IMG/VR virus record: IMGVR_UViG_2690316210_000016
Location: 1-13,035 of that record
DNA length: 13,035 nt
Strand: one strand, 5' to 3'
Source: a virus
Lineage: Duplodnaviria > Heunggongvirae > Uroviricota > Caudoviricetes
The translations under genes were made by a program, and so were the position numbers. Below are positions 1,231 to 13,035 of this stretch, piece by piece (positions within the stretch are counted from its first letter, which is position 1; every line of letters begins with the position of its first letter). The notes beneath the pieces were generated by a model, which did not search any database, had not been told where the DNA came from, and worked only from the letters and a program-made list of their open reading frames with translations.

Positions 1231-1260
1231 TTTTTTTTGCGATTTTTCAGGATGCGGACA

Positions 1261-1315
1261 ACGTGAAACAACGAGACACAACGACGAACAACAAGGAACA
1301 AAATGGAACAACGGG
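1261..1315. repeat. Five tandem ~10-11 bp GAACAAC-type repeats between int and alpA
   Basis: Direct reading: tgaaacaacga / gacacaacgac / gaacaacaag / gaacaaaatg / gaacaacggg, at roughly one helical turn spacing. A second CA-rich repetitive stretch (gacacaatcc gacacaaccc aacccaataatccaccc) lies at about 1513..1565. Confidence 0.4.
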
Positions 1316-1595
1316 TTAAAAATCAGCCATCGTAATAACCATTTGATTTTTATAGGTGTACTGTTTTTTTATACACTGGCGAATCACTCTTAAAAATATG
1401 TAAAAAAGGCGTAAAAGTAAAATTTTATGCCTTTGCATCATAATGAATTAAAAGAGTTTTTATTCTCATTCCCCCTGCTTCTGTAAAACGACCGCCGCCA
1501 GTGTTTGCCATTCCACAAACACCCTGACACAATCCGACACAACCCAACCCAATAATCCACCCAATGACTCTTTAAGAAACAACAAAGGGGGAATT

Positions 1596-1836: not shown

Positions 1837-3261
1837 ATGAATACTGGATATTCTCCCGAACAAGGGCGGGGCTTCGTTCGTCCTGAAAAACAGAATCTGC
1901 AAAATTTTGCCGAAATTATTCCGGTTATTTCCGGCCTTACTGGCGGGAGTGAAACCAATATTGTTAACGCCAGAGCGTTGCAGATGTTTGATGATAAAAA
2001 GGGAGTAAATTTAACTTACACCCCTGACGGCAATCAGAATATGAGCATTATCTCTGAGTCAGGTTTCTACAAACTAATAAAAACAAAAAGCGCCCCGTTG
2101 CCGGAGCGCCTTTGTGAACAATTAACCTACTGCGCAAAAAATGAATCTGAGCAGTGGGATTATATCAACCATGTGGAGAAGCGCCACAATTGCCGAATAA
2201 CGGGCAAAACAAAGGCCACCCGCTACGGTGGCCCCTCGACACAAGCTACACGTTATCCCCAACGCATGAGCATTGCCAACAATGCCACATTTGCGGCTGG
2301 TGGGCAATGCAATCAGTCTGGTTCAGTTCGTTGCCATACCTGCAATGAGCGCTTTTCCCTGTACTCTTTAAGGAATTGCTCAAGGGCAAAAGCACATGGC
2401 GCGAATCTTTCTGATTCATGCTCTATCTTTCTGCGCCGTCTTTTCCGTGCCGGTGATAATGTTTTGGTCAATTCTTTATCGGTCATTGTGTTGTCCTGCA
2501 TAGCAATGCGCCGTAATACCTTACACCACGGCGCTGATGGTGATTACTCTGGTTCTTTGGTCTTGCGGCGCTGGAGTTCTTCACGTGCGACAGTGACGAG
2601 CTGCCCGATCTCCTCGGCGGCTTTGATTCCGAGTTTTTCCACCTGCGCCAGTGCATCGAGCGAAGAAACCAGGGGATTTTCTCCACTTCCTTCTGCCTGG
2701 CGCCGGGCGATCTCACCGCGTACAGCCGTAACTATAAAATTCGCTTTAGTTTCCCCTGGCTGTAGGGATGCCTCAATGCCACTCACTACTTCATGTGGAA
2801 ATCTGGCATTCAGTTGCTGTGACTTATTGTTAACAGAACTCCTGGACATGTTTGCACCTCCCATTAATAACGGGATGCAGTGTAATACAAAAGTGAATAC
2901 CAAAAAAGACTTGAAATGGTATTCACCTAAATGTAATGTGAATACCACAAGTGCTGATACATGCAATTCAGCAATTGAAACGACGAAGCCCCGCACTGTT
3001 GGAGCAGTAACGGGGCTTCTAACCACCAACGATAACGAGAGTATCGAGGTAGCTATGAGAAATCATACCACACACCCGCAAGGGCGGGACTCGCACAACC
3101 TGAATAAATACATCTGGCGTTTTATCGCCCTGAGCACTGCACAACCGCGCGTGATTACCATTGAGGCCACCAGCGAACAGGAAGCACGCCAGCAATCCCC
3201 GGCTGGCTGCGTGATGGTATTCGCTGCCCGTATTCGTCAGGAGGTGTGCCATGTGCAATAA
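1837..3261 (+). CDS. Questionable 474-codon ORF; only the first ~90 codons look protein-like (antirepressor / Bro-N-like segment)
   Basis: Residues ~50-85 (MFDDKKGVNLTYTPDGNQNMSIISESGFYKLIKTKSA) resemble the C-terminal half of a Bro-N/antirepressor domain, but the N-terminal half does not match well. From about nt 2150 onward the translation is Cys/Ser/Arg/Thr-rich and looks non-coding. The ORF also runs antisense through a well-supported minus-strand gene (2544..2849) and through a repeat-rich regulatory region. Probably a gene remnant plus a chance open frame. Confidence 0.25.
   Translation: MNTGYSPEQGRGFVRPEKQNLQNFAEIIPVISGLTGGSETNIVNARALQMFDDKKGVNLTYTPDGNQNMSIISESGFYKLIKTKSAPLPERLCEQLTYCAKNESEQWDYINHVEKRHNCRITGKTKATRYGGPSTQATRYPQRMSIANNATFAAGGQCNQSGSVRCHTCNERFSLYSLRNCSRAKAHGANLSDSCSIFLRRLFRAGDNVLVNSLSVIVLSCIAMRRNTLHHGADGDYSGSLVLRRWSSSRATVTSCPISSAALIPSFSTCASASSEETRGFSPLPSAWRRAISPRTAVTIKFALVSPGCRDASMPLTTSCGNLAFSCCDLLLTELLDMFAPPINNGMQCNTKVNTKKDLKWYSPKCNVNTTSADTCNSAIETTKPRTVGAVTGLLTTNDNESIEVAMRNHTTHPQGRDSHNLNKYIWRFIALSTAQPRVITIEATSEQEARQQSPAGCVMVFAARIRQEVCHVQ
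2544..2849 (-). CDS. Hypothetical small protein (102 aa), possible island regulator
   Basis: Minus-strand ATG (complement of cat at 2847..2849) sits 6 nt after a strong Shine-Dalgarno (GGGAGGTG on the minus strand). The longer upstream extension in the ORF track (to 3029) is hydrophobic junk, so the internal start is preferred. It faces away from the replication operon across operator-like repeats. No family recognised. Confidence 0.45.
   Translation of the reverse strand: MSRSSVNNKSQQLNARFPHEVVSGIEASLQPGETKANFIVTAVRGEIARRQAEGSGENPLVSSLDALAQVEKLGIKAAEEIGQLVTVAREELQRRKTKEPE
2881..3019. promoter_or_regulatory. Operator-like repeats (GTGAATACC direct and inverted) and a 9-bp-stem hairpin in the divergent intergenic region
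   Basis: GTGAATACC at 2893..2901 and 2938..2946, its inverse GGTATTCAC at 2918..2926; TGTAAT at 2881 and 2932. Hairpin GAAGCCCCG (2985..2993) / CGGGGCTTC (3011..3019) with no downstream T-tract. Lies between the minus-strand gene and the plus-strand operon starting at 3251. Confidence 0.35.
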
Positions 3262-4290: not shown

Positions 4291-4590
4291 ATGAAACTTA
4301 AATATTCTGGCTTAACTGCCAGTGGCAACACTCACCCTAAATTTACGCGCGGTGATATTTACCGCGACCAGTACGGCGGCACGGTAATGATTAAGGGCGT
4401 GGAAGAACGGCGTGTAACCTACCGCCGTGAAGGTTACGAATATGATTGCGTGATGCCTGTTTATCAGTTCCGGCGTGATTTTTCTCTGGTGCAGACCGCG
4501 CCGCATAACGTGCCCACCAGCAACGCCAGGGCACGGGCAAACATCCAGAAGCTGAAAACCATGATTAACGGATTCAGGGGTAAAAAATGA
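4291..4590 (+). CDS. Hypothetical protein, 99 aa
   Basis: ATG at 4291 after GGAGA; its stop overlaps the primase start (ATGA). No family recognised. Confidence 0.5.
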   Translation: MKLKYSGLTASGNTHPKFTRGDIYRDQYGGTVMIKGVEERRVTYRREGYEYDCVMPVYQFRRDFSLVQTAPHNVPTSNARARANIQKLKTMINGFRGKK

Positions 4591-6341
4591 AACTGGCACC
4601 GAACGTAAAACAGCAGTCACGCGGCATAAAACACAAAGGAACAGAAGTCATTATTTTTGCGGGTAGTGATGCCTGGGCACACGCGAAACAATGGCAGGAA
4701 CATGATGCGCGTATGGCCGGAGATAATGAGCCTCCTGTGTGGCTTGGGGAGCAGCAGTTATCAGAACTGGATAAGCTGCAAATTGTGCCGGAAGGCAGAA
4801 AATCCGTGCGCATATTCAGGGCCGGATATCTTGCGCCAGTAATGATAAAGGCGATTGGCCAGAAGCTGGCGGCGGCAGGCGTACAGGATGCAAATTTTTA
4901 CCCTGATGGTATGCACGGTCAGAAGGTGGAGAACTGGCGCGAATATCTGGCCCGTGAGCGCCAGAATCTTTCTGATGGTCTGGTCATTGAGCTTCCGGTA
5001 AAGCAAAAGGCGCAACTTTCGCAGATGGCGGACAGTGAGCGCGCGCAGCTGCTTGCCGATCGCTTTGATGGCGTTTGCGTACATCCTGAAAGTGAAATCG
5101 TTCACGTATGGCGCGGCGGGGTATGGTGTCCGGTCAGCACAATGGAACTTAGCCGCGAAATGGTGGCGATCTATTCAGAGCACAGGGCCACTTTCAGCAA
5201 GCGCGTAATCAATAACGCCGTGGAAGCGTTAAAAGTTATTGCCGAACCAATGGGCGAGCCGTCCGGCGATTTGCTGCCGTTCGCCAATGGTGCGCTTGAC
5301 CTGAAAACGGGGGAATTTTCCCCGCACACGCCGGAGAACTGGATCACCACGCACAACGGCATTGAGTACACGCCACCAGCACCCGGGGAGAACATCCGCG
5401 ATAACGCGCCAAACTTTCATAAATGGCTTGAGCACGCAGCCGGAAAAGACCCGCGCAAGATGATGCGTATATGTGCCGCGCTGTACATGATTATGGCGAA
5501 CCGGTACGACTGGCAGATGTTTATTGAGGCCACCGGAGACGGCGGGAGCGGTAAAAGTACATTCACACACATAGCCAGCCTTCTGGCAGGGAAACAAAAC
5601 ACGGTAAGCGCTGAAATGACATCGCTTGATGATGCTGGTGGGCGTGCGCAGGTTGTCGAGAGTCGTCTTATCGTCCTGGCTGACCAGCCGAAATATACAG
5701 GCGAAGGAACGGGCATCAAGAAAATCACGGGCGGCGACCCCGTGGAAATTAACCCGAAATATGAAAAGCGTTTCACGGCGGTAATCAGGGCGGTGGTGCT
5801 GGCGACCAACAACAACCCGATGATATTCACCGAACGGGCCGGAGGTGTGGCACGTCGTCGCGTGATTTTCCGTTTCGACAATATCGTCAGTGAGGCCGAA
5901 AAAGACAGGGAGCTACCGGAAAAGATTGCGGCTGAAATCCCTGTGATTATCCGCCGATTGCTGGCGAACTTTTCCGACCCTGAAAAGGCACGGGCTTTAC
6001 TCATTGAACAGCGTGACGGTGATGAAGCACTGGCGATAAAGCAGCAAACGGATCCGGTTATTGAGTTTTGCCAGTTCCTGAATTTTCTGGAGGAAGCGCG
6101 CGGCCTGATGATGGGTGGCGGTGGCGATTCAGTGAAGTACACGACCAGGAACAGCCTTTACCGCGTCTATCTGGCGTTTATGGCATACGCAGGCAGGAGC
6201 AAACCGCTAAACGTAAATGACTTTGGCAAGGCTATGAAGCCTGCCGCAAAAGTTTACGGACATGAATATATTACGCGGAAAGTTAAGGGGGTAACGCAGA
6301 CTAACGCAATAACAACAGACGAGTGCGACGCGTTTTTATAA
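4587..6341 (+). CDS. Replication initiator: P4-type primase C-terminal / SF3 helicase (D5-like NTPase) protein, 584 aa
   Basis: Walker A P-loop EATGDGGSGKSTF (nt ~5534..5557) followed by a Walker-B-like hydrophobic stretch ending in D (RLIVLADQ). Overall resemblance to the P4-alpha / PICI pri-rep NTPase domain, and an iteron array lies directly downstream. Family from memory, no search run. Confidence 0.82.
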   Translation: MKLAPNVKQQSRGIKHKGTEVIIFAGSDAWAHAKQWQEHDARMAGDNEPPVWLGEQQLSELDKLQIVPEGRKSVRIFRAGYLAPVMIKAIGQKLAAAGVQDANFYPDGMHGQKVENWREYLARERQNLSDGLVIELPVKQKAQLSQMADSERAQLLADRFDGVCVHPESEIVHVWRGGVWCPVSTMELSREMVAIYSEHRATFSKRVINNAVEALKVIAEPMGEPSGDLLPFANGALDLKTGEFSPHTPENWITTHNGIEYTPPAPGENIRDNAPNFHKWLEHAAGKDPRKMMRICAALYMIMANRYDWQMFIEATGDGGSGKSTFTHIASLLAGKQNTVSAEMTSLDDAGGRAQVVESRLIVLADQPKYTGEGTGIKKITGGDPVEINPKYEKRFTAVIRAVVLATNNNPMIFTERAGGVARRRVIFRFDNIVSEAEKDRELPEKIAAEIPVIIRRLLANFSDPEKARALLIEQRDGDEALAIKQQTDPVIEFCQFLNFLEEARGLMMGGGGDSVKYTTRNSLYRVYLAFMAYAGRSKPLNVNDFGKAMKPAAKVYGHEYITRKVKGVTQTNAITTDECDAFL

Positions 6342-6356
6342 TTTTTTGTAATTGCT

Positions 6357-6580
6357 GTCTACCCTGTCTACCTGAGTAAAGAAAAATACATTTAATTCAG
6401 TGCATTAAGTTAGGTAGATAGCCTTTTTTTACTGTCTACCCACTATCTACCCTCTCTACCTGATTTTACCTGAATCAGACAGGGAGGTAGACACGGGGTA
6501 GATAGTGGATAAAAGCACTCTACCCCGCTGAAATCCGCGCCATTACTGGCATGAGGGCCACTAAGGTAGATAAGGTAGAC
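6357..6580. repeat. Iteron array, putative replication origin
   Basis: About 11 copies of the heptamer GTCTACC / GGTAGA(C/T) within 225 bp. Mostly GTCTACC-type in the left cluster (6357, 6366, 6434, 6445, 6454) and GGTAGAC/T-type in the right cluster (6486, 6497, 6565, 6574), with one GGTAGAT at 6413 and one CTCTACC at 6518. An AT-rich stretch (6374..6412) lies inside the left cluster. Confidence 0.7.
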
Positions 6581-6629: not shown

Positions 6630-6908
6630 ATGCACACTTCAGGGAAATTTAATAAATCACTCAAAAAACGCAGAGACAGAACAGAACCGAAATATCGCGC
6701 GTTAGACATGACAGAGCACGCTTTAAAGGTGGCAATCAGAACGATAGACCGACACGTAGGGGAAGGATACGCGAAGGAACATCCCGACCTGATAAGCGCA
6801 TTCATGACCACAGCAGCGGCAAACTTTGCCACGCTGACAGAACGGGAGATTGCCGAAGCGGAACAGGTAACAACCATCAACGTTAAAACCGGAGAGGTGG
6901 AATCATGA
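6630..6908 (+). CDS. Hypothetical protein, 92 aa
   Basis: ATG at 6630 preceded by GAGGGGG; its stop overlaps the start of the SSB-like gene (ATGA). No family recognised. Confidence 0.5.
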   Translation: MHTSGKFNKSLKKRRDRTEPKYRALDMTEHALKVAIRTIDRHVGEGYAKEHPDLISAFMTTAAANFATLTEREIAEAEQVTTINVKTGEVES

Positions 6909-7315
6909 CAGCACAGATAGCAGCTTACGGGCGGCTGGTGGACGACCCGCAGGTAAAACAGACCAGCAAGGGCACACCAATGACGCTGGCACGTATGGCG
7001 GTATCGTTGCCATGTAGTCAGGCGCAGGATGGGCAGGCTACGTTATGGCTATCGGTGATGGCATTTGGTAAGCAGGCCGACTTCCTGGCTAAACATCAAA
7101 AAGGCGACGTTGCCAGCGTATCCGGCACGATGCAGGTCAGCCAGTGGACCGGACAGAACGGGGAAACGCGGCAGGGTTATCAGGTTATTGCAGACAGCGT
7201 AATCAGTGCCCGTGCGGCACGTCCTGGCGGGAACAGACGCAAAACCACAGGCACACAGGGTAATCAGCCACCAGCGGGAGGCGATGACCCTTACGGTGAT
7301 GATATTCCGTTCTGA
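6905..7315 (+). CDS. ssb: Single-stranded DNA-binding protein homolog (short, 136 aa)
   Basis: OB-fold-like N-terminal region, a Gly/Pro/Gln-rich linker, and a C-terminal acidic tip GDDIPF that corresponds to the conserved DDDIPF tail of bacterial SSB. Confidence 0.78.
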   Translation: MTAQIAAYGRLVDDPQVKQTSKGTPMTLARMAVSLPCSQAQDGQATLWLSVMAFGKQADFLAKHQKGDVASVSGTMQVSQWTGQNGETRQGYQVIADSVISARAARPGGNRRKTTGTQGNQPPAGGDDPYGDDIPF

Positions 7316-7828: not shown

Positions 7829-8035
7829 ATGGCTGAAGAGAAAAAAGGCGGTGTTTCGGTGTACATAAGCCCCGACATCGTGAAGGCGCTCAAGGAACGC
7901 CACCAGCAGAACGTAAAAGCAGGCATTGCGGCAGGACTTGATCCGCTGGCGATGGTTGAGCCGTCAACAGGCTGGCAGGTACGCGCCTATTTACGCGCGG
8001 CGCTGGGTATGAATCAGGTTCACGGGGGTGAATAA
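7829..8035 (+). CDS. Hypothetical protein, 68 aa, first gene of the capsid module
   Basis: ATG at 7829 after AAGAGGA; stop overlaps the capsid gene start (TAATG). No family recognised. Confidence 0.55.
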   Translation: MAEEKKGGVSVYISPDIVKALKERHQQNVKAGIAAGLDPLAMVEPSTGWQVRAYLRAALGMNQVHGGE

Positions 8036-9090
8036 TGACAGTAAAAGCAATGGCACTTAACACTAACCAGCTTTTTGCGTACCTGAATCGCGGGGATATT
8101 GCGGAATTTAAATTCAGTCCGCTGTTTACCACGCTGTTTTTCCCGAACGTGGCGACATTCAGCACGCAAAACATCATGCTGGATACCCTGGACATTGAAG
8201 AAGTCACCATGTCGGCGTTTTGTTCGCCTATGGTGGGTAGCCAGGTTCAGCGCGATAAAGGGTACGAAACCAGCACGATTAAACCTGGCTACATGAAGCC
8301 AAAGCACGAAATCGATCCAACGAAAACCATCATGCGCATGGCTGGAGAAGATCCGGCACAGCTTAACGACCCTACCTATCGCCGTATGCGCCTGATTACT
8401 GGCAATATGCGCCGCCAGATAAACGCCATAAAAGCGCGCGTGGAATGGCTGGCGGTAAATGCGGTAACGACCGGAAAAAACATCATTGAAGGCGAAGGCA
8501 TAGAGCGCTATGAAATCGACTGGAAGATACCGGAAAAAAACATCATAGAGCAGGCCGACGGGAAAAAATGGTCAGAGCAGGACAAAGAAACCCACGATCC
8601 AATCTATGATATCGAACTATACGCCGATCAGGCTGGTTGCCCCGCAAACGTCATGATTATGGGCGCTGAGGTATGGCGAACGTTACGCAGCTTTAAAAAA
8701 TTCCGTGAGCTGTACGATCTTTCCCGTGGTTCAGAGTCCGCCGCAGAGCTGGCCTGTAAAAACCTGGGCGAAGTGGTGAGCTTTAAAGGCTATCTGGGCG
8801 ATATTGCCCTTATCGTCTATTCCGGCAAATACACTGACAGCGACGGCACAGAAAAATATTTCCTTGAGCCTGATTTGCTTGTCCTGGGCAACACCAACAA
8901 TAAAGGGCTGGTGGCCTATGGTGCGATTATGGATCAGGACGCAGTAAGAACGGGCGCAACGCAAAACATGTTTTACCCGAAAAACTGGATTGAGGACGGC
9001 GATCCGGCGATTGAGTACGTGCAGACGCACAGCGCACCGCAGCCGGTTCCGGCAGATATTCGCAAATTTGTTACCGTCAAAATTGGTTAA
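8035..9090 (+). CDS. Major capsid protein, lambda gpE-like (HK97 fold family), 351 aa
   Basis: Multiple blocks match lambda gpE as recalled: KPGYMKPKHEIDP vs TPGYVKPKHEVNP; DPTYRRMRLITGNMR vs DPAYRRRRIIMQNMR; VSFKGYLGDIALIVYSGKY vs VSYKGMYGDVAIVVYSGQY; LLVLGNTNNKGLVAYGAIMDQDA vs TMVLGNTQARGLRTYGCIQDADA; YPKNWIEDGDPAIEY vs YPKNWVTTGDPAREF. Length is similar to gpE (341 aa). Confidence 0.9.
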   Translation: MTVKAMALNTNQLFAYLNRGDIAEFKFSPLFTTLFFPNVATFSTQNIMLDTLDIEEVTMSAFCSPMVGSQVQRDKGYETSTIKPGYMKPKHEIDPTKTIMRMAGEDPAQLNDPTYRRMRLITGNMRRQINAIKARVEWLAVNAVTTGKNIIEGEGIERYEIDWKIPEKNIIEQADGKKWSEQDKETHDPIYDIELYADQAGCPANVMIMGAEVWRTLRSFKKFRELYDLSRGSESAAELACKNLGEVVSFKGYLGDIALIVYSGKYTDSDGTEKYFLEPDLLVLGNTNNKGLVAYGAIMDQDAVRTGATQNMFYPKNWIEDGDPAIEYVQTHSAPQPVPADIRKFVTVKIG

Positions 9091-9101
9091 CGGGGGATTC
9101 T

Positions 9102-9437
9102 ATGGACACTCCATACATTGAGTTATTTGCAGGCAGTCAGCAGGTCGCCACGACGCTGGTACATTTTGCCGCTGATGCTGGCGTTATTCAGGAATTTACC
9201 CCGCTGATGCTGGCGGACAATGGCGAGTTTAAGCCGTGGGATGGTAAGGAATCTGGCAAGGCTGTTTATCTGACCTCGTACCCTGTGGACACGTCAAAGC
9301 AGAAATCAGCACAGTGTTACAAGACGGGGATATTCAATATTGCCGCCGTTAACTGGCCTGAGAGCGTCGACACCGATGCGAAAAAATGCGCCGCCTTTGC
9401 GGGTTCCGGCGTATCCGTTCAGCCGCTGGCCCGATAA
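9102..9437 (+). CDS. Head decoration protein, lambda gpD-like, 111 aa
   Basis: Matches lambda gpD (110 aa) as recalled: TPLMLADNGEFKPWDG vs TPLMLDTSSRKLVAWDG; CYKTGIFNIAAVNWPESVDTDAKKCAAFAGSGVSV vs [35 protein letters not shown]. Preceded by GGGGGAT. Confidence 0.85.
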   Translation: MDTPYIELFAGSQQVATTLVHFAADAGVIQEFTPLMLADNGEFKPWDGKESGKAVYLTSYPVDTSKQKSAQCYKTGIFNIAAVNWPESVDTDAKKCAAFAGSGVSVQPLAR

Positions 9438-9892: not shown

Positions 9893-9957
9893 CGGGTCCT
9901 TCCTGGAATTATGGCCCGTTACGGGGCGGCGACCTCGCGGGTTTTCGCTATTTATGA
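9893..9957 (+). other. cos site copy A: lambda-type cosQ-cosN junction with only the first ~22 bp of cosB
   Basis: Contains GTTACG-GGGCGGCGACCT-CGCGGGTTTTCGCTATTTATGA, matching the lambda end junction (12-nt cohesive end GGGCGGCGACCT at 9924..9935, recalled from the lambda genome). The preceding CGGGTCCTTCCTGG resembles the lambda right end ACGGGTCCTTTCCGG. No R-type repeats follow before the Nu1-like gene. Confidence 0.8.
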
Positions 9958-10024: not shown

Positions 10025-10459
10025 ATGATTGATAAAGCTTGTTTTGTAAGTCAGCAGGAAATAGCTGAACATTTCAAGGTTAACAGAACCACTATTCGCG
10101 CATGGACCAAACAGGGGATGCCGTATCTTAATGCGGATCGCGGAAAGTCTGGCGGTTATCACATCGGGCATACATTGCTTTGGTCTTCAGGTAAAAGCCG
10201 TCTTGAGGCCATCAGATATCACGTAGAAACCAGTGCGCTGGAAAAAATTATGTTTGCCAGGCTGCTTTCATCTGAGCGTGACGAGTACTCCAGTGAAGAA
10301 ACAGAACATCGATTTGATGAAGGTTTGCAGATTTACGGCTATTCACCGGAAGATGTGAGCAAGGCACGAAATAAAATGGCTGGCTTTCTGGCTGGGTGGC
10401 GTCATGCCGTAAGCGTTCGCCGTGCCAGCATGGAGCAATCAGCCGATACAGAACAGTAA
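10025..10459 (+). CDS. Small terminase subunit homolog (lambda gpNu1-like N-terminal winged-HTH domain), 144 aa
   Basis: VSQQEIAEHFKVNRTTIRAWTKQGMPYLNADRGKSGG aligns with lambda Nu1 VNKKQLADIFGASIRTIQNWQEQGMPVLRGGGKGN. Shorter than Nu1 (181 aa), and the C-terminal half is unrelated. No large terminase subunit gene is present in the window. Confidence 0.72.
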   Translation: MIDKACFVSQQEIAEHFKVNRTTIRAWTKQGMPYLNADRGKSGGYHIGHTLLWSSGKSRLEAIRYHVETSALEKIMFARLLSSERDEYSSEETEHRFDEGLQIYGYSPEDVSKARNKMAGFLAGWRHAVSVRRASMEQSADTEQ

Positions 10460-10527: not shown

Positions 10528-10705
10528 ATGTCCGGTTTTAGTGTCTGTTTTTTGCGCATGTCCGGTTCATGGAAAGCATGTTTTTATATTTTTCATATGG
10601 TTAACTTGCAGAGAAACCGGACATGGATCCCGAAAAATTTTCATAAATAGTGAAAACGCGCGAGGTCGCCGCCCCGTAACGGGCCATAATTCCAGGAAGG
10701 ACCCG
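10528..10705 (-). other. cos site copy B (inverted): cosQ-cosN plus a complete cosB-like region with three R-like repeats and an AT-rich tract
   Basis: Read on the minus strand: cosQ-like at 10675..10705, cosN (AGGTCGCCGCCC on plus) at 10663..10674, then TATTTATGAAAATTTTCGGG, matching lambda TATTTATGAAAATTTTCCGG. R-like decamers ATGTCCGGTT at 10528..10537 and 10558..10567 and the inverse AACCGGACAT at 10615..10624, with an AT-rich tract at 10570..10612. This mirrors the lambda cosN-R3-I1-R2-R1 layout but with a different repeat sequence. Confidence 0.75.
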
Positions 10706-10738: not shown

Positions 10739-11020
10739 ATGACAGAAGCCGAAATACTGCGATTAATCCGCCGCGTTGCCGGAATCAGCCAGCAGGCCGA
10801 CGAACAGACCACGCAGCCGGACAGCGTGACCGCCGAAAATTATGTTCGTGTGGTTGCTGAGATGATTCGCCGTAATGGTATCCAGCTTAATGATGTGGAT
10901 ATGCGCAACATACGGATCCGCGTTCTTGAAATGCTGGCCTACAATCGCCGCGTGGCACTGTATCGGGAAACGGAGAAAATTACGTACCACTGGAAGAAGC
11001 CGGAGCGGTTGCGGCGGTAA
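10739..11020 (+). CDS. Hypothetical protein, 94 aa, distal to cos
   Basis: Start chosen at ATG 10739 (GGGGG upstream). The ORF-track start at 10541 would translate through cos copy B. No family recognised. Confidence 0.45.
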   Translation: MTEAEILRLIRRVAGISQQADEQTTQPDSVTAENYVRVVAEMIRRNGIQLNDVDMRNIRIRVLEMLAYNRRVALYRETEKITYHWKKPERLRR

Positions 11021-11070
11021 CTGGTTGATATTTTCGAAATTCGCCAGCGGCGAACATCGGGGAAACCAGC

Positions 11071-11187
11071 CTAACCCGTTGATATTTTCGGGAACCTCAA
11101 ATTGAGGAGGTCGGAAACATAACCCGTCATATTCTGGATGCTGATAATTACCACGCAGCCCATTAAGGCCTAACCCGTTGATTCTTC
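11071..11187. repeat. Three direct repeats of TAACCCGT(T/C)(G/A)AT at ~48-bp spacing
   Basis: ctaacccgttgatattttcg (11071), cataacccgtcatattctgg (11119), cctaacccgttgattcttcc (11168); also ttgatattttcg at 11024. Confidence 0.4.
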
Positions 11188-11193
11188 CACAAT

Positions 11194-11356
11194 CCCCCAT
11201 TGGGGGAGGCTGGGCGGCCTGCTGTGGGCTTTTCCACCATTGGTGGAAAGGCGCACATCTGGATCATCATTACGGTGATCAAGGGTATGTAAAACCCACC
11301 AGCCTGATTGACATTTAACCGGAAAAAAGCCAGGTAGCCCCATTATGGGGATCCCC
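11194..11356. repeat. Cluster of GC-rich palindromes with a CCATTGG-type core
   Basis: CCCCCA-T-TGGGGG (11194..11206), TTTCCACCA-T-TGGTGGAAA (11231..11249), CCCCAT-T-ATGGGG (11338..11350) overlapping GGGGATCCCC (11347..11356). Confidence 0.4.
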
Positions 11357-11574
11357 ATATCGACATTAACGCCCCTCATGAATTGGCGCGCTTCCCCCTG
11401 GAAAGATGACCCGCCTGTATATTTCTTGTGTCTATTTGTTCCACGTTGTTTCATACAGTGCAACGATCGGTGTAGTTAATGGTGTAGTCAATTTGCGATT
11501 TTTAGCACTTTTTGCAGTGCAAATCATTTAATTAAATCAATGACTTGCCTTGATGTAGTGATAAAAGGACATAT

Positions 11575-13035
11575 TTATTCATCTTTCGGCGCAGAATGCT
11601 GGCGACCAAAAATCACCTCCATCCGCGCACCGCCCAGCATGCTCTCTCCGGCGACGATTTTACCCTCATATTGCTCGGTGATTTCGCGGGCTACCGCCAG
11701 CCCTACACCTTGCCCAGGGCGTAAAGTATCAACCCGTTGACCACGGTCGAAAATGACCTCTCGCTTGCTTAATGGAATACCGGGGCCATCATCCTCGACC
11801 ACAATATAGAGATGCTCGTCGGTTTGCCTTGCAGAAATTTCGACAAACTCGAGGCAATATTTACAGGCATTATCCAGCACGTTGCCCATCACCTCGACAA
11901 AATCGTTCTGCTCACCGACAAAGCTGATCTCTGGCGAAATATCGAGAGAGATATTGACCCCTTTGCGTTGATACACTTTGTTCAGCGCTGAGGTGAGATT
12001 GTCCAGCAGTGGGGCGACCGGATGCAGCTCGCGGCTGAGCAATGTCCCGCCGCGCATACTGGCACGATGCAGGTAGTAGCCAATTTGCTGTGAAATGCGG
12101 CTGATTTGCTCCAGCATTACCGGCTCAGCATCACTGACGCTCATCTTTTCACTACGCAGAGAACGCAGCGTACTTTGCAGCACCGCCAGTGGCGTTTTCA
12201 GACTATGGGTCAGGTCGGTGAGCGTCGTACGGTATTTGTCGTAACGTTCGCGTTCACTTTTTAACAATCGGTTCAGGTTTCGTACCAGACTGGTCAGTTC
12301 TCGCGTTGTGGCTGGATTGAGCAATTCGCGGTTATGTTCTTCCAGTTCGCGGACTTCTTTTGCCAGGGCTTCGATGGGGCGTAAACTCCACCAGGCGGCG
12401 ACCCACAGCAGCGGGATCACTAACAGCAGATTGGCTGAGAGCACATAGATAAACCAGCTCCAGACCATATAGGAACTTTTTAGCTCCACCGGAATGGTAT
12501 CCACCACCACAATGGTTAATTTTGGCATCCGCGATGTTGCCGGGTAGACGTTTACTGCCACCGAGTGGGTCATCTCCGCGTCGTCATCATCTTCCCGCAC
12601 TTCCTGCAACTGTTGCTGTATCGAATGATCTCCACTCAGCAAGAGGCTGGTATCGTTAACATCCGCTTCAATTTCATGAAAACCATTCGATTTCAGCCAG
12701 TCAGGCTGGATCATCTTCATCAGCCAGGGCACGTCACGTTGCGCCCATAAAAGCTGCCCGTTCTCATCATAAATTAGCGTCATGGTGGGGCTTTGCTTGT
12801 CGATATTTTCGGGTAACTCGACATGCAACTTATTGTTTTCCCACTTCGCAAGGGTATAGAACAGATTGCTCTCGCCACGTAACAGCCGAAACGTAGTTTT
12901 ATCGAAACTGACGCTATAACCGATCAGCGCGACCATTCCGTAGGCAAGCGAAAGCACCAGTACTACCGCAGCCGTTGCCAACAGAAAACGTACCCGCAGC
13001 GAGAGCGGGAAAAAAAGACGCAGTAATTTTTTCAT
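11575..13035 (-). CDS. phoQ: Sensor histidine kinase PhoQ, 486 aa, complete
   Basis: Translation matches E. coli PhoQ as recalled, including the periplasmic acidic patch EDDDDAE, the H-box HSLKTPL and the C-terminal ATP-binding domain. The start codon is the last three bases of the window. Confidence 0.93.

What the first reader, a model, noticed from the sequence alone, without database searches (positions are those of the whole stretch)
11021..11356. Right-end region with phased direct repeats and CCATTGG-core palindromes, a candidate attachment-site arm
Three TAACCCGTTGAT-type direct repeats at ~48-bp spacing are followed by three GC-rich palindromes sharing a CCA-T-TGG core. Direct repeats of this kind are typical of integrase arm-type sites, and the palindromes could be core-type sites or binding sites for another protein. 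The island-chromosome junction should lie in or near this region.
Basis: seen in the sequence. Interest (0 to 1): 0.5.

Follow-up and report, generated by a model that had tools for sequence, protein, structure and literature searches.

The report
Phage-operator copies arrayed in a satellite
The repeats and palindromes are real, but they are not integrase arm sites: they are a tandem array of host IHF-type bending sites, each paired with a small palindrome, matching a short internal piece of helper-phage roi/rha regulator genes, which suggests that this phage satellite carries docking sites for its helpers' regulators.

Summary
The window is an EcCICFT073-type phage satellite (PICI) inserted between roxA and phoQ. 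The true junction is a 10-bp duplicated core, GGACATATTT, at 11567-11576, which is 211 bp right of the finding. The likely arm-type sites are GGTGTAGTYAAT x2 at 11469-11492, and they recur in the left arm.

The finding region holds something else: about five ~50-bp modules.
- Three modules carry a perfect IHF consensus (TAACNNGTTGATW is the reverse complement of WATCAANNNNTTR).
- In each of those three, an odd-centred palindrome sits exactly 29 bp downstream of the first base of the IHF site.
- Each module matches, always on the minus strand, codons ~40-56 of a different allele of phage roi/rha/ant genes. Those genes carry a palindrome at nt 136 and an IHF consensus at nt 153-165.

Similarity between satellite and phage is confined to the palindrome arms and the specified IHF bases. 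Eleven PICIs at seven chromosomal sites, with different arm repeats, carry such arrays, with at least 16 different palindromes.

Best reading (inferred, untested): an allele-specific Roi/Rha-box plus IHF-site array that binds helper-phage regulators. I found no paper linking Roi and PICIs.

The parts
11018..11060 (-). Module A. IHF-consensus site at 11018-11030 (TATCAACCAGTTA on the minus strand), which overlaps the stop codon of the 93-aa ORF. Palindrome TTCGCCAGCGGCGAA at 11040-11054, centred 29 bp from the first base of the IHF site.
   Evidence: It matches codons ~42-55 of the 'DNA-binding protein' (Roi family) of Stx2 phages, 38/57 identical in the anchored alignment, with the identity concentrated on the IHF site, the spacer and the palindrome.
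11069..11119 (-). Module B. IHF-consensus site at 11072-11084 (TATCAACGGGTTA on the minus strand) plus palindrome CCTCAAATTGAGG at 11095-11107 (centre 11101, +29).
   Evidence: The palindrome half-sites are the same as in roi of JLK-2012, HK620, H-19B and Kapi1 (ATCCTCAAATTGAGGAT / CCTCAAATTGAGG at nt 136 of the gene, with IHF at nt 153-165).
11120..11170 (-). Module C, degenerate. Broken IHF motif TAACCCGTCATAT at 11120-11132 and decayed palindrome TGCTGATAATTACCA at 11139-11153.
   Evidence: It is homologous to the TGGTCATAATGACCA / TGGTGATAATCACCA module, which is intact in other PICIs (L003, L004, L015, L016). No phage counterpart was found for this module type.
11171..11208 (-). Module D. 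IHF-consensus site at 11171-11183 (AATCAACGGGTTA on the minus strand) plus palindrome TCCCCCATTGGGGGA at 11193-11207 (centre 11200, +29).
   Evidence: It matches the roi allele of VT2-Sakai, HK629 and the PA phages (…CCACCATTGGGGG… plus AATCAATAACTTA).
11209..11249 (-). Module E, Rha type, without an IHF site. It contains the 19-bp palindrome TTTCCACCATTGGTGGAAA at 11231-11249.
   Evidence: It is 97.6% identical over 41 bp to a prophage Rha-family gene (codons 42-56, 'FPPMVEKPTAGRP'), and 90% identical to the antirepressor gene of phage-plasmid SSU5. In both genes the palindrome CTTTTCCACCAATGGTGGAAAAG sits at the same codon position.
11250..11337 (.). Conserved ~85-bp spacer block between the array and the att arm. 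Its role is unknown.
   Evidence: It is present in many PICIs and occurs twice in L004. There is a promoter-like match on the minus strand (TTTACA-16-AATGAT, 11293..11266).
11344..11566 (+). Conserved att arm proper (the P arm of attP). It contains:
- the palindrome TATGGGGATCCCCATA at 11344-11359
- TTGTTCC/GTTGTTTC repeats at about 11430-11452
- the probable arm-type sites GGTGTAGTTAAT GGTGTAGTCAAT at 11469-11492
- the palindrome TTTGCAGTGCAAA at 11511-11523
- the IHF consensus AATCAATGACTTG at 11535-11547
   Evidence: It is about 90-100% conserved in phoQ-site and tqsA-site islands (alignment A1). GGTGTAGTTAAT x2 is repeated in the left arm upstream of int (L002 3648-3671).
11567..11576 (.). 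Crossover core and island-chromosome junction (attR). GGACATATTT overlaps the phoQ stop codon.
   Evidence: The empty site in K-12 reads …GTATGGACATATTTATTCATC…. attL reads …GTATGGACATATTTTATCAA…. attR reads …AAAAGGACATATTTATTCATC….

Best explanation
Window 11018-11249 is a tandem array of about 50-bp protein-binding modules, not an integrase arm.

Each module is a copy or mimic of the short, allele-specific internal segment of helper-phage roi/rha/ant genes (Phage_pRha N-terminal domain, usually with a KilAC/ANT C-terminal domain). In the phage, that segment carries an odd-centred palindrome, which I take to be the protein's own operator. In Roi-type alleles it also carries an IHF site with its far end 29 bp from the palindrome centre.

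The satellite strings together modules of several specificities: Roi of the JLK-2012/Kapi1 type, Roi of the VT2-Sakai type, the Stx2-phage 'DNA-binding protein' type, the Rha/SSU5 type, and one decayed module.

Proposed mechanism:
- During helper lytic growth, Roi/Rha-family proteins made from the helper's early/nin region would bind these boxes on satellite DNA, together with host IHF, which bends each module.
- This would form a nucleoprotein array at the satellite's right end, between cos2 and the att arm.
- The most likely consequence is that the array acts as a multi-helper decoy (a titration sponge) or as a landing pad that couples the satellite to whichever lambdoid helper is present.

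What is shown: the homology, the geometry and the pattern of sequence constraint. What is inferred: that the proteins bind, and what the biological pay-off is.
For: 1. Independent BLAST hits of separate modules all fall, on the minus strand, in phage genes annotated roi / Rha / anti-repressor / DNA-binding protein, at the same codons. Scores range from E = 3e-12 (57 bp, 91%) down to weaker hits. Separately, one module is 40/41 identical to a prophage Rha gene.
2. Eight of nine characterised phage alleles have a perfect palindrome (arms 5-12) centred at the same codon: nt 136 in six of them, and the homologous position in SSU5 and ST65. VT2-Sakai has a one-mismatch version at nt 142. Roi types have an IHF consensus at nt 153-165. 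In 80 further IMG/VR Roi loci, the IHF consensus is present in 80 of 80, and most alleles have the nt-136 palindrome.
3. The palindrome lies in the hypervariable stretch of an otherwise highly conserved protein (alignment A3).
4. The distance from the first base of the IHF site to the palindrome centre is 29 bp (30 in a few) in every IHF-type module of 11 PICIs, and the same in the phage genes. No such module appeared in 5 shuffles of 1.1 Mb.
5. In anchored PICI-versus-phage alignments, mismatches are 4% in the palindrome arms, 20% in the spacer, 60% at the N positions of the IHF motif and 55% in the outer flanks (Fisher p = 2e-31). For the ST65-type box, identity is limited to the palindrome itself.
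6. Palindromes differ between modules by symmetric double changes: CCTCAAATTGAGG versus CCCCCATTGGGGG, and TGGTCATAATGACCA versus TGGTGATAATCACCA. In the PICI they are perfect although the reading frame is destroyed.
7. The arrays are shared by PICIs with different att arms and different morphogenesis modules.
8. Literature: Roi is cited as a DNA-binding protein linked to IHF (Clerget & Boccard 1996, cited in PMC3430580 and PMC4587872). From my memory of that abstract, which I could not check because the paper is not held: Roi binds a site inside its own gene, next to an IHF site, and IHF stabilises the binding.
Against: - No binding data exist for any of these boxes. The key statement about the Roi site rests on my memory of an abstract.
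- In phages, the IHF consensus coincides with a conserved peptide (I-N-x-L-G), so there it could be a by-product of coding.
- Two module types (TGGTCATAATGACCA and CCCCACTGGGG) have no phage counterpart in the searches made.
- One module in this window is decayed, and a few phage alleles have imperfect palindromes.
- The alpA promoter alone responds to the helper in a related PICI (PMC11773190), so the array is not needed for induction.
- All modules have one orientation relative to the PICI genes. A DNA-site model does not require this.
- The benefit to the satellite is unknown.
Confidence: 0.45

Rival explanations
1. Antisense-RNA array. The modules are transcribed as the 3' extension of the PICI late operon (93-aa ORF mRNA, + strand). 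This gives RNA complementary to the hypervariable part of several helper roi/rha mRNAs and silences them, in the way P1 c4 RNA controls ant.
For: - All modules in all 11 PICIs examined are antisense to roi relative to the PICI gene direction.
- No convincing intrinsic terminator separates the ORF from the array.
- The region folds better than shuffles as RNA (z = -2.9).
- One module is 40/41 identical to a prophage Rha gene.
Against: - Complementarity is short and breaks down immediately outside the palindrome and IHF bases: 55-60% mismatch in the flanks and at the N positions.
- A pan-allele antisense would more sensibly target the highly conserved neighbouring sequence (YVFEGEQGKRDS…) with a single copy.
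- The exact 29-bp IHF-to-palindrome geometry and the perfect IHF consensus are not explained.
- There is no Rfam match.
Confidence: 0.17
2. Non-functional debris. The region consists of scars of repeated illegitimate or short-homology recombination between satellites and helper roi genes, or of a decayed, internally duplicated roi-like pseudogene. It persists because the right end tolerates junk.
For: - The region is mosaic and highly variable between PICIs.
- One module here is decayed (11120-11170).
- The minus-strand frames are full of stops.
- No Pfam hit was found for the mechanical ORFs.
Against: - Neutral decay would erode palindromes and IHF bases as fast as the flanks. Instead the arms show 4% mismatch against 55% in the flanks.
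- Only the ~50-bp operator-bearing piece of the gene is ever present, in 3-10 tandem copies and from different alleles.
- The 29-bp spacing is kept without indels.
- The PICI versions are sometimes more perfectly symmetric than the phage allele: CCCCCATTGGGGG against CCACCATTGGGGG.
Confidence: 0.2
3. The TAACCCGTTGAT repeats are arm-type sites of the island's tyrosine integrase, and the palindromes are core-type or accessory sites of an extended att arm.
For: - The integrase has an arm-DNA-binding domain (PF13356).
- IHF sites and phased repeats are typical of attP arms.
- The array always lies next to the right att arm.
- The att arm itself contains one IHF-plus-palindrome pair with module-like spacing (11535-11547 and 11511-11523).
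Against: - The repeats are 384-549 bp from the core and absent from the left arm.
- A different tandem repeat, GGTGTAGTYAAT x2, is present in both arms.
- Identical modules accompany different arm repeats and different insertion sites.
- The palindromes have unrelated sequences, which is incompatible with a single integrase specificity.
Confidence: 0.04
4. Structure-dependent element. The element is recognised through hairpins or cruciforms, or through repeated identical sites: a replication origin, a single-strand initiation signal or a centromere-like site (sopC- or parS-like).
For: - The tandem ~50-bp units, each with an inverted repeat, resemble F sopC. IHF plus flanking repeats resembles P1 parS (my knowledge).
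- The variety of sequences with a constant hairpin shape fits recognition of structure.
- EcCIMP1 has one of these palindromes beside its putative ori iterons.
Against: - A better ori candidate, inverted TCTACC iterons at 6428-6509, lies next to the primase gene.
- The palindromes differ between units, unlike sopC.
- No partition genes are present.
- The loops are only 1-3 nt.
Confidence: 0.07

Closest known systems
Internal Roi-binding site plus IHF site of the phage HK022 roi gene (Clerget & Boccard 1996, J Bacteriol 178:4077). The details are from my memory of the abstract.
   Same: - The architecture is the same: an odd-centred palindrome followed by an IHF consensus whose far end lies 29 bp from the palindrome centre.
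- There is direct sequence homology to several roi alleles.
- HK022 roi itself has CTGCATTGCAG at nt 136 and AATCAATGATTTA at nt 153-165.
   Different: - Here the site is outside any gene and is multiplied 3-10 times in tandem.
- It combines several allelic specificities and sits in a satellite rather than in the phage.
- Binding has not been tested.
Helper-regulator binding sites in satellite P4: P2 Cox boxes at P4 PLL, and Ogr/Delta sites at Psid (my knowledge).
   Same: A satellite carries DNA sites for DNA-binding proteins of its helper, which couples its behaviour to the helper's cycle.
   Different: - The P4 sites lie in promoters and control defined operons. The array here is downstream of the last gene, and no promoter has been shown to be controlled by it.
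- The proteins are unrelated (Cox/Ogr versus pRha-domain proteins).
- The multi-allele library has no P4 equivalent.
Lambda attP arms (IHF sites H1/H2/H' plus integrase arm-type sites).
   Same: IHF consensus sites are phased along non-coding DNA next to a tyrosine-recombinase core. The island's real arm (11344-11566) has this make-up.
   Different: The array modules are too far from the core, are absent from the other arm and do not co-vary with the integrase or its arm repeats.
F-plasmid sopC and P1 parS centromere-like sites (my knowledge).
   Same: Tandem 43-50-bp units, each with a short inverted repeat. In parS, an IHF site is embedded among the protein boxes.
   Different: The sopC units are identical and bind one protein, whereas the palindromes here differ from unit to unit. 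There are no partition genes.
EcCICFT073-type cos/Rpp packaging region (Fillol-Salom 2019, PMC6739421; Feiss 2022, PMC9026076).
   Same: It is the same element family and the same neighbourhood. The window has two inverted lambda-type cosN sites flanking an rpp-like gene, as described for cos1 and cos2.
   Different: The array is a separate feature 350-590 bp from cos2. Neither paper mentions it.

Membership tests
Integrase arm-type sites / attP arm | The repeated motif lies within about 200 bp of the crossover core and occurs in both arms. | tested here: not met
   The TAACNNGTTGAT copies are 384-549 bp from the core (11567-11576), and none is present in the left arm. GGTGTAGTYAAT x2 is present in both arms instead.
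Integrase arm-type sites / attP arm | The motif co-varies with the integrase and the att site. | tested here: not met
   The same modules are found with the arm repeats GGTGTAGTTAAT (phoQ, clpS, tqsA sites), TGTGTGGTCAGT (thiM) and GGTTATACG (yejO).
Integrase arm-type sites / attP arm | The motif is bound by the integrase N-terminal arm-binding domain. | not testable with these tools
   This needs an EMSA or footprint. The integrase does have PF13356.
IHF binding site | Match to WATCAANNNNTTR with an A/T-rich tract 5' of it. | tested here: met
   There are three perfect matches on the minus strand (11018, 11072, 11171), two of them preceded by GAAAAT. The window holds 6 matches against 0.6 expected. 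The N positions vary while the specified bases are kept.
IHF binding site | Actual IHF binding and bending. | not testable with these tools
Roi/Rha-family operator (the site inside the phage gene) | Sequence homology to the palindrome-bearing segment (codons ~40-56) of roi/rha/ant genes. | tested here: met
   Four of the five modules in the window have an identified phage allele.
Roi/Rha-family operator (the site inside the phage gene) | Dyad symmetry kept at a fixed distance from the IHF site. | tested here: met
   The palindrome centre lies 29 (30) bp from the first base of the IHF site in PICI modules and in the phage genes. No such module appeared in the shuffles.
Roi/Rha-family operator (the site inside the phage gene) | Bound by the cognate Roi/Rha protein. 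| not testable with these tools
   The primary paper is not held. Only the citation and the label 'DNA-binding protein' could be verified.
Lambda-type cos site | cosN 12-mer GGGCGGCGACCT with flanking cosB/cosQ. | tested here: not met
   There is no cosN in 11018-11360. The two cosN copies lie at 9924-9935 (+) and 10663-10674 (-).
Iteron origin / sopC-like centromere | Multiple identical protein-binding repeats next to the cognate rep or par gene. | tested here: not met
   The palindromes differ between units. The primase gene is 4.7 kb away and has its own iteron hairpin at 6428-6509.
Known RNA family or intrinsic terminators | An Rfam covariance-model hit, or a hairpin followed by a U-tract. 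| tested here: not met
   There is no Rfam hit in the region at E <= 1. None of the palindromes is followed by a T-run. The only terminator-like hit, at 11006-11023, is weak.

The most novel reading that the evidence does not exclude
PICI-type satellites (both the Rpp type and the capsid-forming type) carry, at their right end, a hypervariable 'library' of operator mimics. Each is a copy of the allele-specific Roi/Rha box (with or without its IHF site) that lambdoid and P1/SSU5-like phages keep inside their own roi/rha/ant genes. The library would let one satellite bind, and so sense or titrate, the early regulators of many different helper or competitor phages. It would diversify by exchange with phage alleles in an arms race. 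A corollary for phage biology: Roi/Rha-family genes encode their own operator within the codons for their hypervariable segment, so that specificity and site travel together.
Probability: 0.35. Interest if true: 0.8.

Novelty: new variant of a known kind. Interest (0 to 1): 0.62.

Why it matters
How enterobacterial PICIs perceive and manipulate their helper phages is only partly understood. AlpA induction and Rpp-mediated packaging are known, but the phage cue is not.

A non-coding array that collects the operator-plus-IHF segment of many roi/rha alleles would be a new, DNA-based layer of satellite-helper interaction. It is directly testable with EMSAs, ChIP and deletions.

It also points to a role for the long-neglected Roi/Rha 'antirepressor-like' proteins, which were identified through the inability of their phages to grow in IHF-defective hosts. 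It gives a simple sequence signature for the right ends of PICIs: an IHF consensus with a palindrome 29 bp away.

Practically, it corrects the att-site anatomy of this island: the core is at 11567-11576 and the arm repeats at 11469-11492.

Tried and rejected
- **Integrase arm-type sites:** rejected on distance from the core, absence from the left arm, and independence from arm type.
- **cos site or cosB:** rejected. The cosN copies are elsewhere, and the cos literature does not cover this region.
- **Known RNA:** no Rfam hit.
- **Terminators:** no U-tracts.
- **Coding on the minus strand:** all three frames contain stops. The mechanical ORFs 11170-11463 and 10763-11200 have no Pfam hits. One small minus-strand ORF annotated in L141 is hydrophobic, is not conserved as an ORF here, and is not annotated in the near-identical GN02050.
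- **Lambda-ori-like iterons:** the palindromes superficially resemble lambda O-protein iterons, but the BLAST hits are in roi/rha genes, not in O genes.
- **The 93-aa ORF as a partner protein:** it belongs to PHROG 1561 (unknown function) and has no Pfam or NCBIfam hit. The AlphaFold model has pLDDT 68 with three helices, too weak for a fold search.
- **Genome-contig scan with the 93-aa protein:** it returned only one locus.
- **Exact 15-mer scan of IMG/VR for TGGTCATAATGACCA:** mostly chance hits plus PICI copies, and no phage gene.
- **EcCIMP1/Kapi1 pair:** EcCIMP1 has no such array, only one related palindrome near its putative ori.
- **Literature searches linking PICI with Roi/Rha, or Roi with IHF:** nothing beyond citations of the 1996 paper, which is not held.
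Full report
**Context**

The window is a roughly 11.6-kb phage satellite of the EcCICFT073/PICI kind, inserted between roxA and phoQ. Its genes are:
- a tyrosine integrase with an arm-binding domain (1-1230)
- an AlpA-type regulator (1596-1784)
- a D5_N primase-helicase (4587-6341)
- an SSB (6905-7315)
- lambda E-like and D-like head proteins (8035-9090 and 9102-9437)
- a small Nu1/Rpp-like HTH protein (10025-10459)
- a 93-aa ORF of unknown function (10739-11020)

phoQ occupies 11575-13035 on the minus strand. Two perfect lambda cosN 12-mers in inverted orientation flank the rpp-like gene (9924-9935 +, 10663-10674 -). This matches the published cos1/cos2 arrangement, in which the rpp start codon lies about 100 bp after cos1 (PMC6739421; PMC9026076).

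**The junction**

Island-free E. coli, including K-12, match the window only from 11567 onward. The three relevant sequences are:
- K-12 empty site: …GTATGGACATATTTATTCATC…
- Left junction in the near-identical strain GN02050: …GTATGGACATATTTTATCAA…
- Right junction in the window: …AAAAGGACATATTTATTCATC…

The duplicated core is therefore GGACATATTT, at 11567-11576, overlapping the phoQ stop codon. This is 211 bp to the right of the finding's end.

The block 11344-11566 is conserved at about 90-100% in other islands at phoQ and at tqsA (alignment A1). It contains a tandem GGTGTAGTTAAT/GGTGTAGTCAAT pair (11469-11492), which recurs upstream of int in the left arm (L002 3648-3671), and an IHF consensus 20 bp from the core (11535-11547). 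That block is the att arm, and the 12-mers are the likely arm-type sites.

**The observation**

The copies are at 11018, 11072, 11120 (degenerate) and 11171. TAACNNGTTGATW is the reverse complement of the IHF consensus WATCAANNNNTTR. The window holds six matches against 0.6 expected, and three of them lie here on the minus strand.

There are four odd-centred palindromes with arms of at least 6 bp in 343 bp, against 0.12 expected (0 of 2000 shuffles). The other 11 kb of the window holds only one.

Each intact repeat has its own palindrome centred exactly 29 bp after its first base (centres 11047, 11101 and 11200). The unit is therefore an IHF site, an 8-10-bp spacer and a palindrome, repeated every 48-54 bp.

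The conserved element at that position is TATGGGGATCCCCATA, which marks the start of the att arm.

**What the modules are**

Searching the region and its counterparts from other islands against phage genomes gave only short hits. All were on the minus strand, and all were inside genes annotated roi, Rha-family regulator, anti-repressor Ant or DNA-binding protein. Pfam confirms that these are Phage_pRha and/or KilAC/ANT proteins. The window's modules map as follows:
- Window 11209-11249 is 40/41 identical to codons 42-56 of a prophage Rha gene, and 90% identical to the SSU5 antirepressor gene.
- Window 11162-11213 matches roi of JLK-2012 and of Stx1a phages.
- The CCCCCATTGGGGG module matches roi of VT2-Sakai, HK629 and the PA phages. 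The TTCGCCAGCGGCGAA module matches the Roi-family gene of Stx2 phages.

Modules from other islands also have phage counterparts:
- A 23-bp palindrome in the O157-type island (L003) matches a Roi-like gene of Salmonella and Klebsiella phages exactly.
- An L004/L016 module matches a 25-bp palindrome in a Stx1a-phage gene.

**The phage side**

Eight of nine characterised alleles carry a perfect odd-centred palindrome (arms 5-12 bp) at the same codon. Its centre is at nt 136 in six of them and at the homologous position in SSU5 and ST65. VT2-Sakai has a one-mismatch version at nt 142. The Roi types carry an IHF consensus at nt 153-165, so its far end lies 29 bp from the palindrome centre. HK022 roi itself has CTGCATTGCAG and AATCAATGATTTA at these positions.

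In 80 further IMG/VR Roi loci, the IHF consensus is present in all 80, and most alleles have the nt-136 palindrome. The VT2-Sakai allele and two single variants have imperfect ones.

The palindrome lies in the only hypervariable stretch of an otherwise very conserved protein (alignment A3).

Roi is cited as a DNA-binding protein whose phage cannot grow lytically in IHF mutants (Clerget & Boccard 1996, cited). From my memory of that abstract, Roi binds a site within its own gene, closely linked to an IHF site, and IHF stabilises the complex. The paper is not held, so this key point is recalled, not verified.

**Evidence for constraint on the satellite copies**

In twelve anchored alignments of satellite module against phage allele, the mismatch rates were:
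- 4% in the palindrome arms
- 20% in the spacer
- 60% at the four N positions of the IHF motif
- 55% in the outer flanks (Fisher p = 2e-31 for arms against flanks)

For the ST65-type box, identity is restricted to the palindrome.

Modules differ by symmetric double substitutions: CCTCAAATTGAGG versus CCCCCATTGGGGG, and TGGTCATAATGACCA versus TGGTGATAATCACCA versus TGGTCAAAATGACCA. The minus-strand reading frame is destroyed by stops, yet the palindromes and the IHF consensus remain perfect. The 29-bp (occasionally 30-bp) spacing holds in every IHF-type module of eleven PICIs, and no such module arose in five shuffles of 1.1 Mb.

One module in this window (11120-11170) is decayed in both elements.

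**Distribution**

Similar sequence occurs in 1150 of 5426 complete E. coli genomes. Eleven right ends were examined, at phoQ, clpS, tqsA/mdtJ, yejO, hpt and thiM, plus one in Shigella.
- They belong to both Rpp-type and capsid-forming (TerL-containing) PICIs.
- All carry arrays of 3-10 modules between the last gene and the att arm.
- There are at least 16 different palindromes.
- The arm-type repeats change with the insertion site (GGTGTAGTTAAT, TGTGTGGTCAGT, GGTTATACG), while the array modules are shared.

This rules out an integrase-specific role.

**Mechanism**

The best-supported reading is that the array is a set of allele-specific Roi/Rha boxes with IHF sites. When a lambdoid helper, or a P1/SSU5-like phage, expresses its Roi/Rha protein, the protein would bind satellite DNA together with IHF.

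Whether this titrates the regulator, titrates IHF, remodels the adjacent att or cos DNA, or signals the helper's presence cannot be decided here. The alpA promoter alone responds to the helper in EcCIMP1 (PMC11773190), so the array is not the induction switch.

Rivals, in order of weight:
- Neutral recombination debris. The localised conservation argues against it.
- An antisense-RNA array against roi mRNAs. The uniform orientation and the lack of a terminator argue for it. The very short complementarity, and the choice of the variable rather than the conserved part of the gene, argue against it.
- A structure-dependent origin or centromere-like element.

**Novelty**

I found no paper connecting PICIs with Roi/Rha, and none describing this array. 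The cos/Rpp papers do not mention it.

The principle that a satellite carries binding sites for helper regulators is known from P4/P2 (my knowledge). I therefore class this as a new variant of a known kind. It rests on sequence evidence only.

Noticed in passing
window 9924-9935 (+) and 10663-10674 (-); 10528-10537, 10558-10567, 10616-10625: Two perfect lambda cosN 12-mers (GGGCGGCGACCT) in inverted orientation flank the rpp-like gene, as in the published EcCICFT073 cos1/cos2. Beside the second one, ATGTCCGGTT occurs twice directly and once inverted, at cosB-like distances, so these are candidate R elements. The sequence next to cosN is nearly identical to the lambda left end.
   Followed up: partly
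window 6428-6509: A long hairpin built from inverted TCTACC(C) iterons lies just downstream of the primase-helicase gene. It surfaced only as a chance-level mir-135 Rfam hit. It is the more plausible replication origin of the satellite.
   Followed up: no
window 1255-1320 and 11430-11452; L002 3595-3625: Short GAACAA/GAAACAACG-type repeats with a period of about 10 bp follow int. They recur as TTGTTCC/GTTGTTTC in both att arms. They may be AlpA/Xis or integrase accessory sites.
   Followed up: no
window 1837-3261: The 474-aa open frame is probably not one gene. Its N-terminus has only a weak antirepressor (Ant)-like stretch (aa ~49-84), and its C-terminus is an Icd-like cell-division inhibitor (aa 425-468). 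The same stretch of the near-identical strain GN02050 is annotated as several small genes, including one on the opposite strand.
   Followed up: partly
window 11344-11359; L004 1139-1165, 1266-1280, 1787-1803: TATGGGGATCCCCATA, a palindrome with a central GATC, marks the boundary between the array and the att arm and is invariant in five islands. In the clpS-site island, extended versions (CCCGATATGGGGATCACCATATCGGGG) occur three times, bracketing the array. Its function is unknown.
   Followed up: partly
window 11250-11337: A ~85-bp block is conserved among many PICIs and duplicated in L004. It has a sigma-70-like match on the minus strand (TTTACA-16-AATGAT) that would transcribe leftward through the array. 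On that strand it would encode a hydrophobic stretch (FYIPLITVMMIQM), which is part of an annotated 83-aa ORF in L141 only.
   Followed up: partly
window 11511-11523 and 11535-11547: The att-arm IHF site has a palindrome (TTTGCAGTGCAAA) at module-like spacing (30 bp) but in the opposite orientation. In the Shigella island it is replaced by the symmetric variant TTTTCATTGAAAA. In two other islands it is not palindromic.
   Followed up: partly
phage loci L007, L008, L009, L011, L012, L013, L138-L140, L144-L223: Phage roi/rha/ant genes carry a palindrome at a fixed codon (nt 136), inside the hypervariable stretch of the protein, and Roi types have an IHF consensus at nt 153-165. This is a general property of the gene family and seems worth a study of its own.
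   Followed up: partly
L143 11149-11167 and 11270-11400 (EcCIMP1 of E. coli MP1): EcCIMP1 lacks a right-end array. It does have the ST65-type palindrome ACTACGAAAATTTCGTAGT beside direct and inverted GTTGGTTCA iterons flanking an AT-rich stretch, downstream of its primase gene. This is a likely origin of replication.
   Followed up: no
window 10739-11020: The 93-aa ORF (PHROG 1561, unknown function; three predicted helices, pLDDT 68) precedes the array in 10 of the 11 PICIs examined, whatever gene lies before it (rpp, terL or the protease-capsid fusion). Its stop codon lies inside the first IHF-type site.
   Followed up: partly
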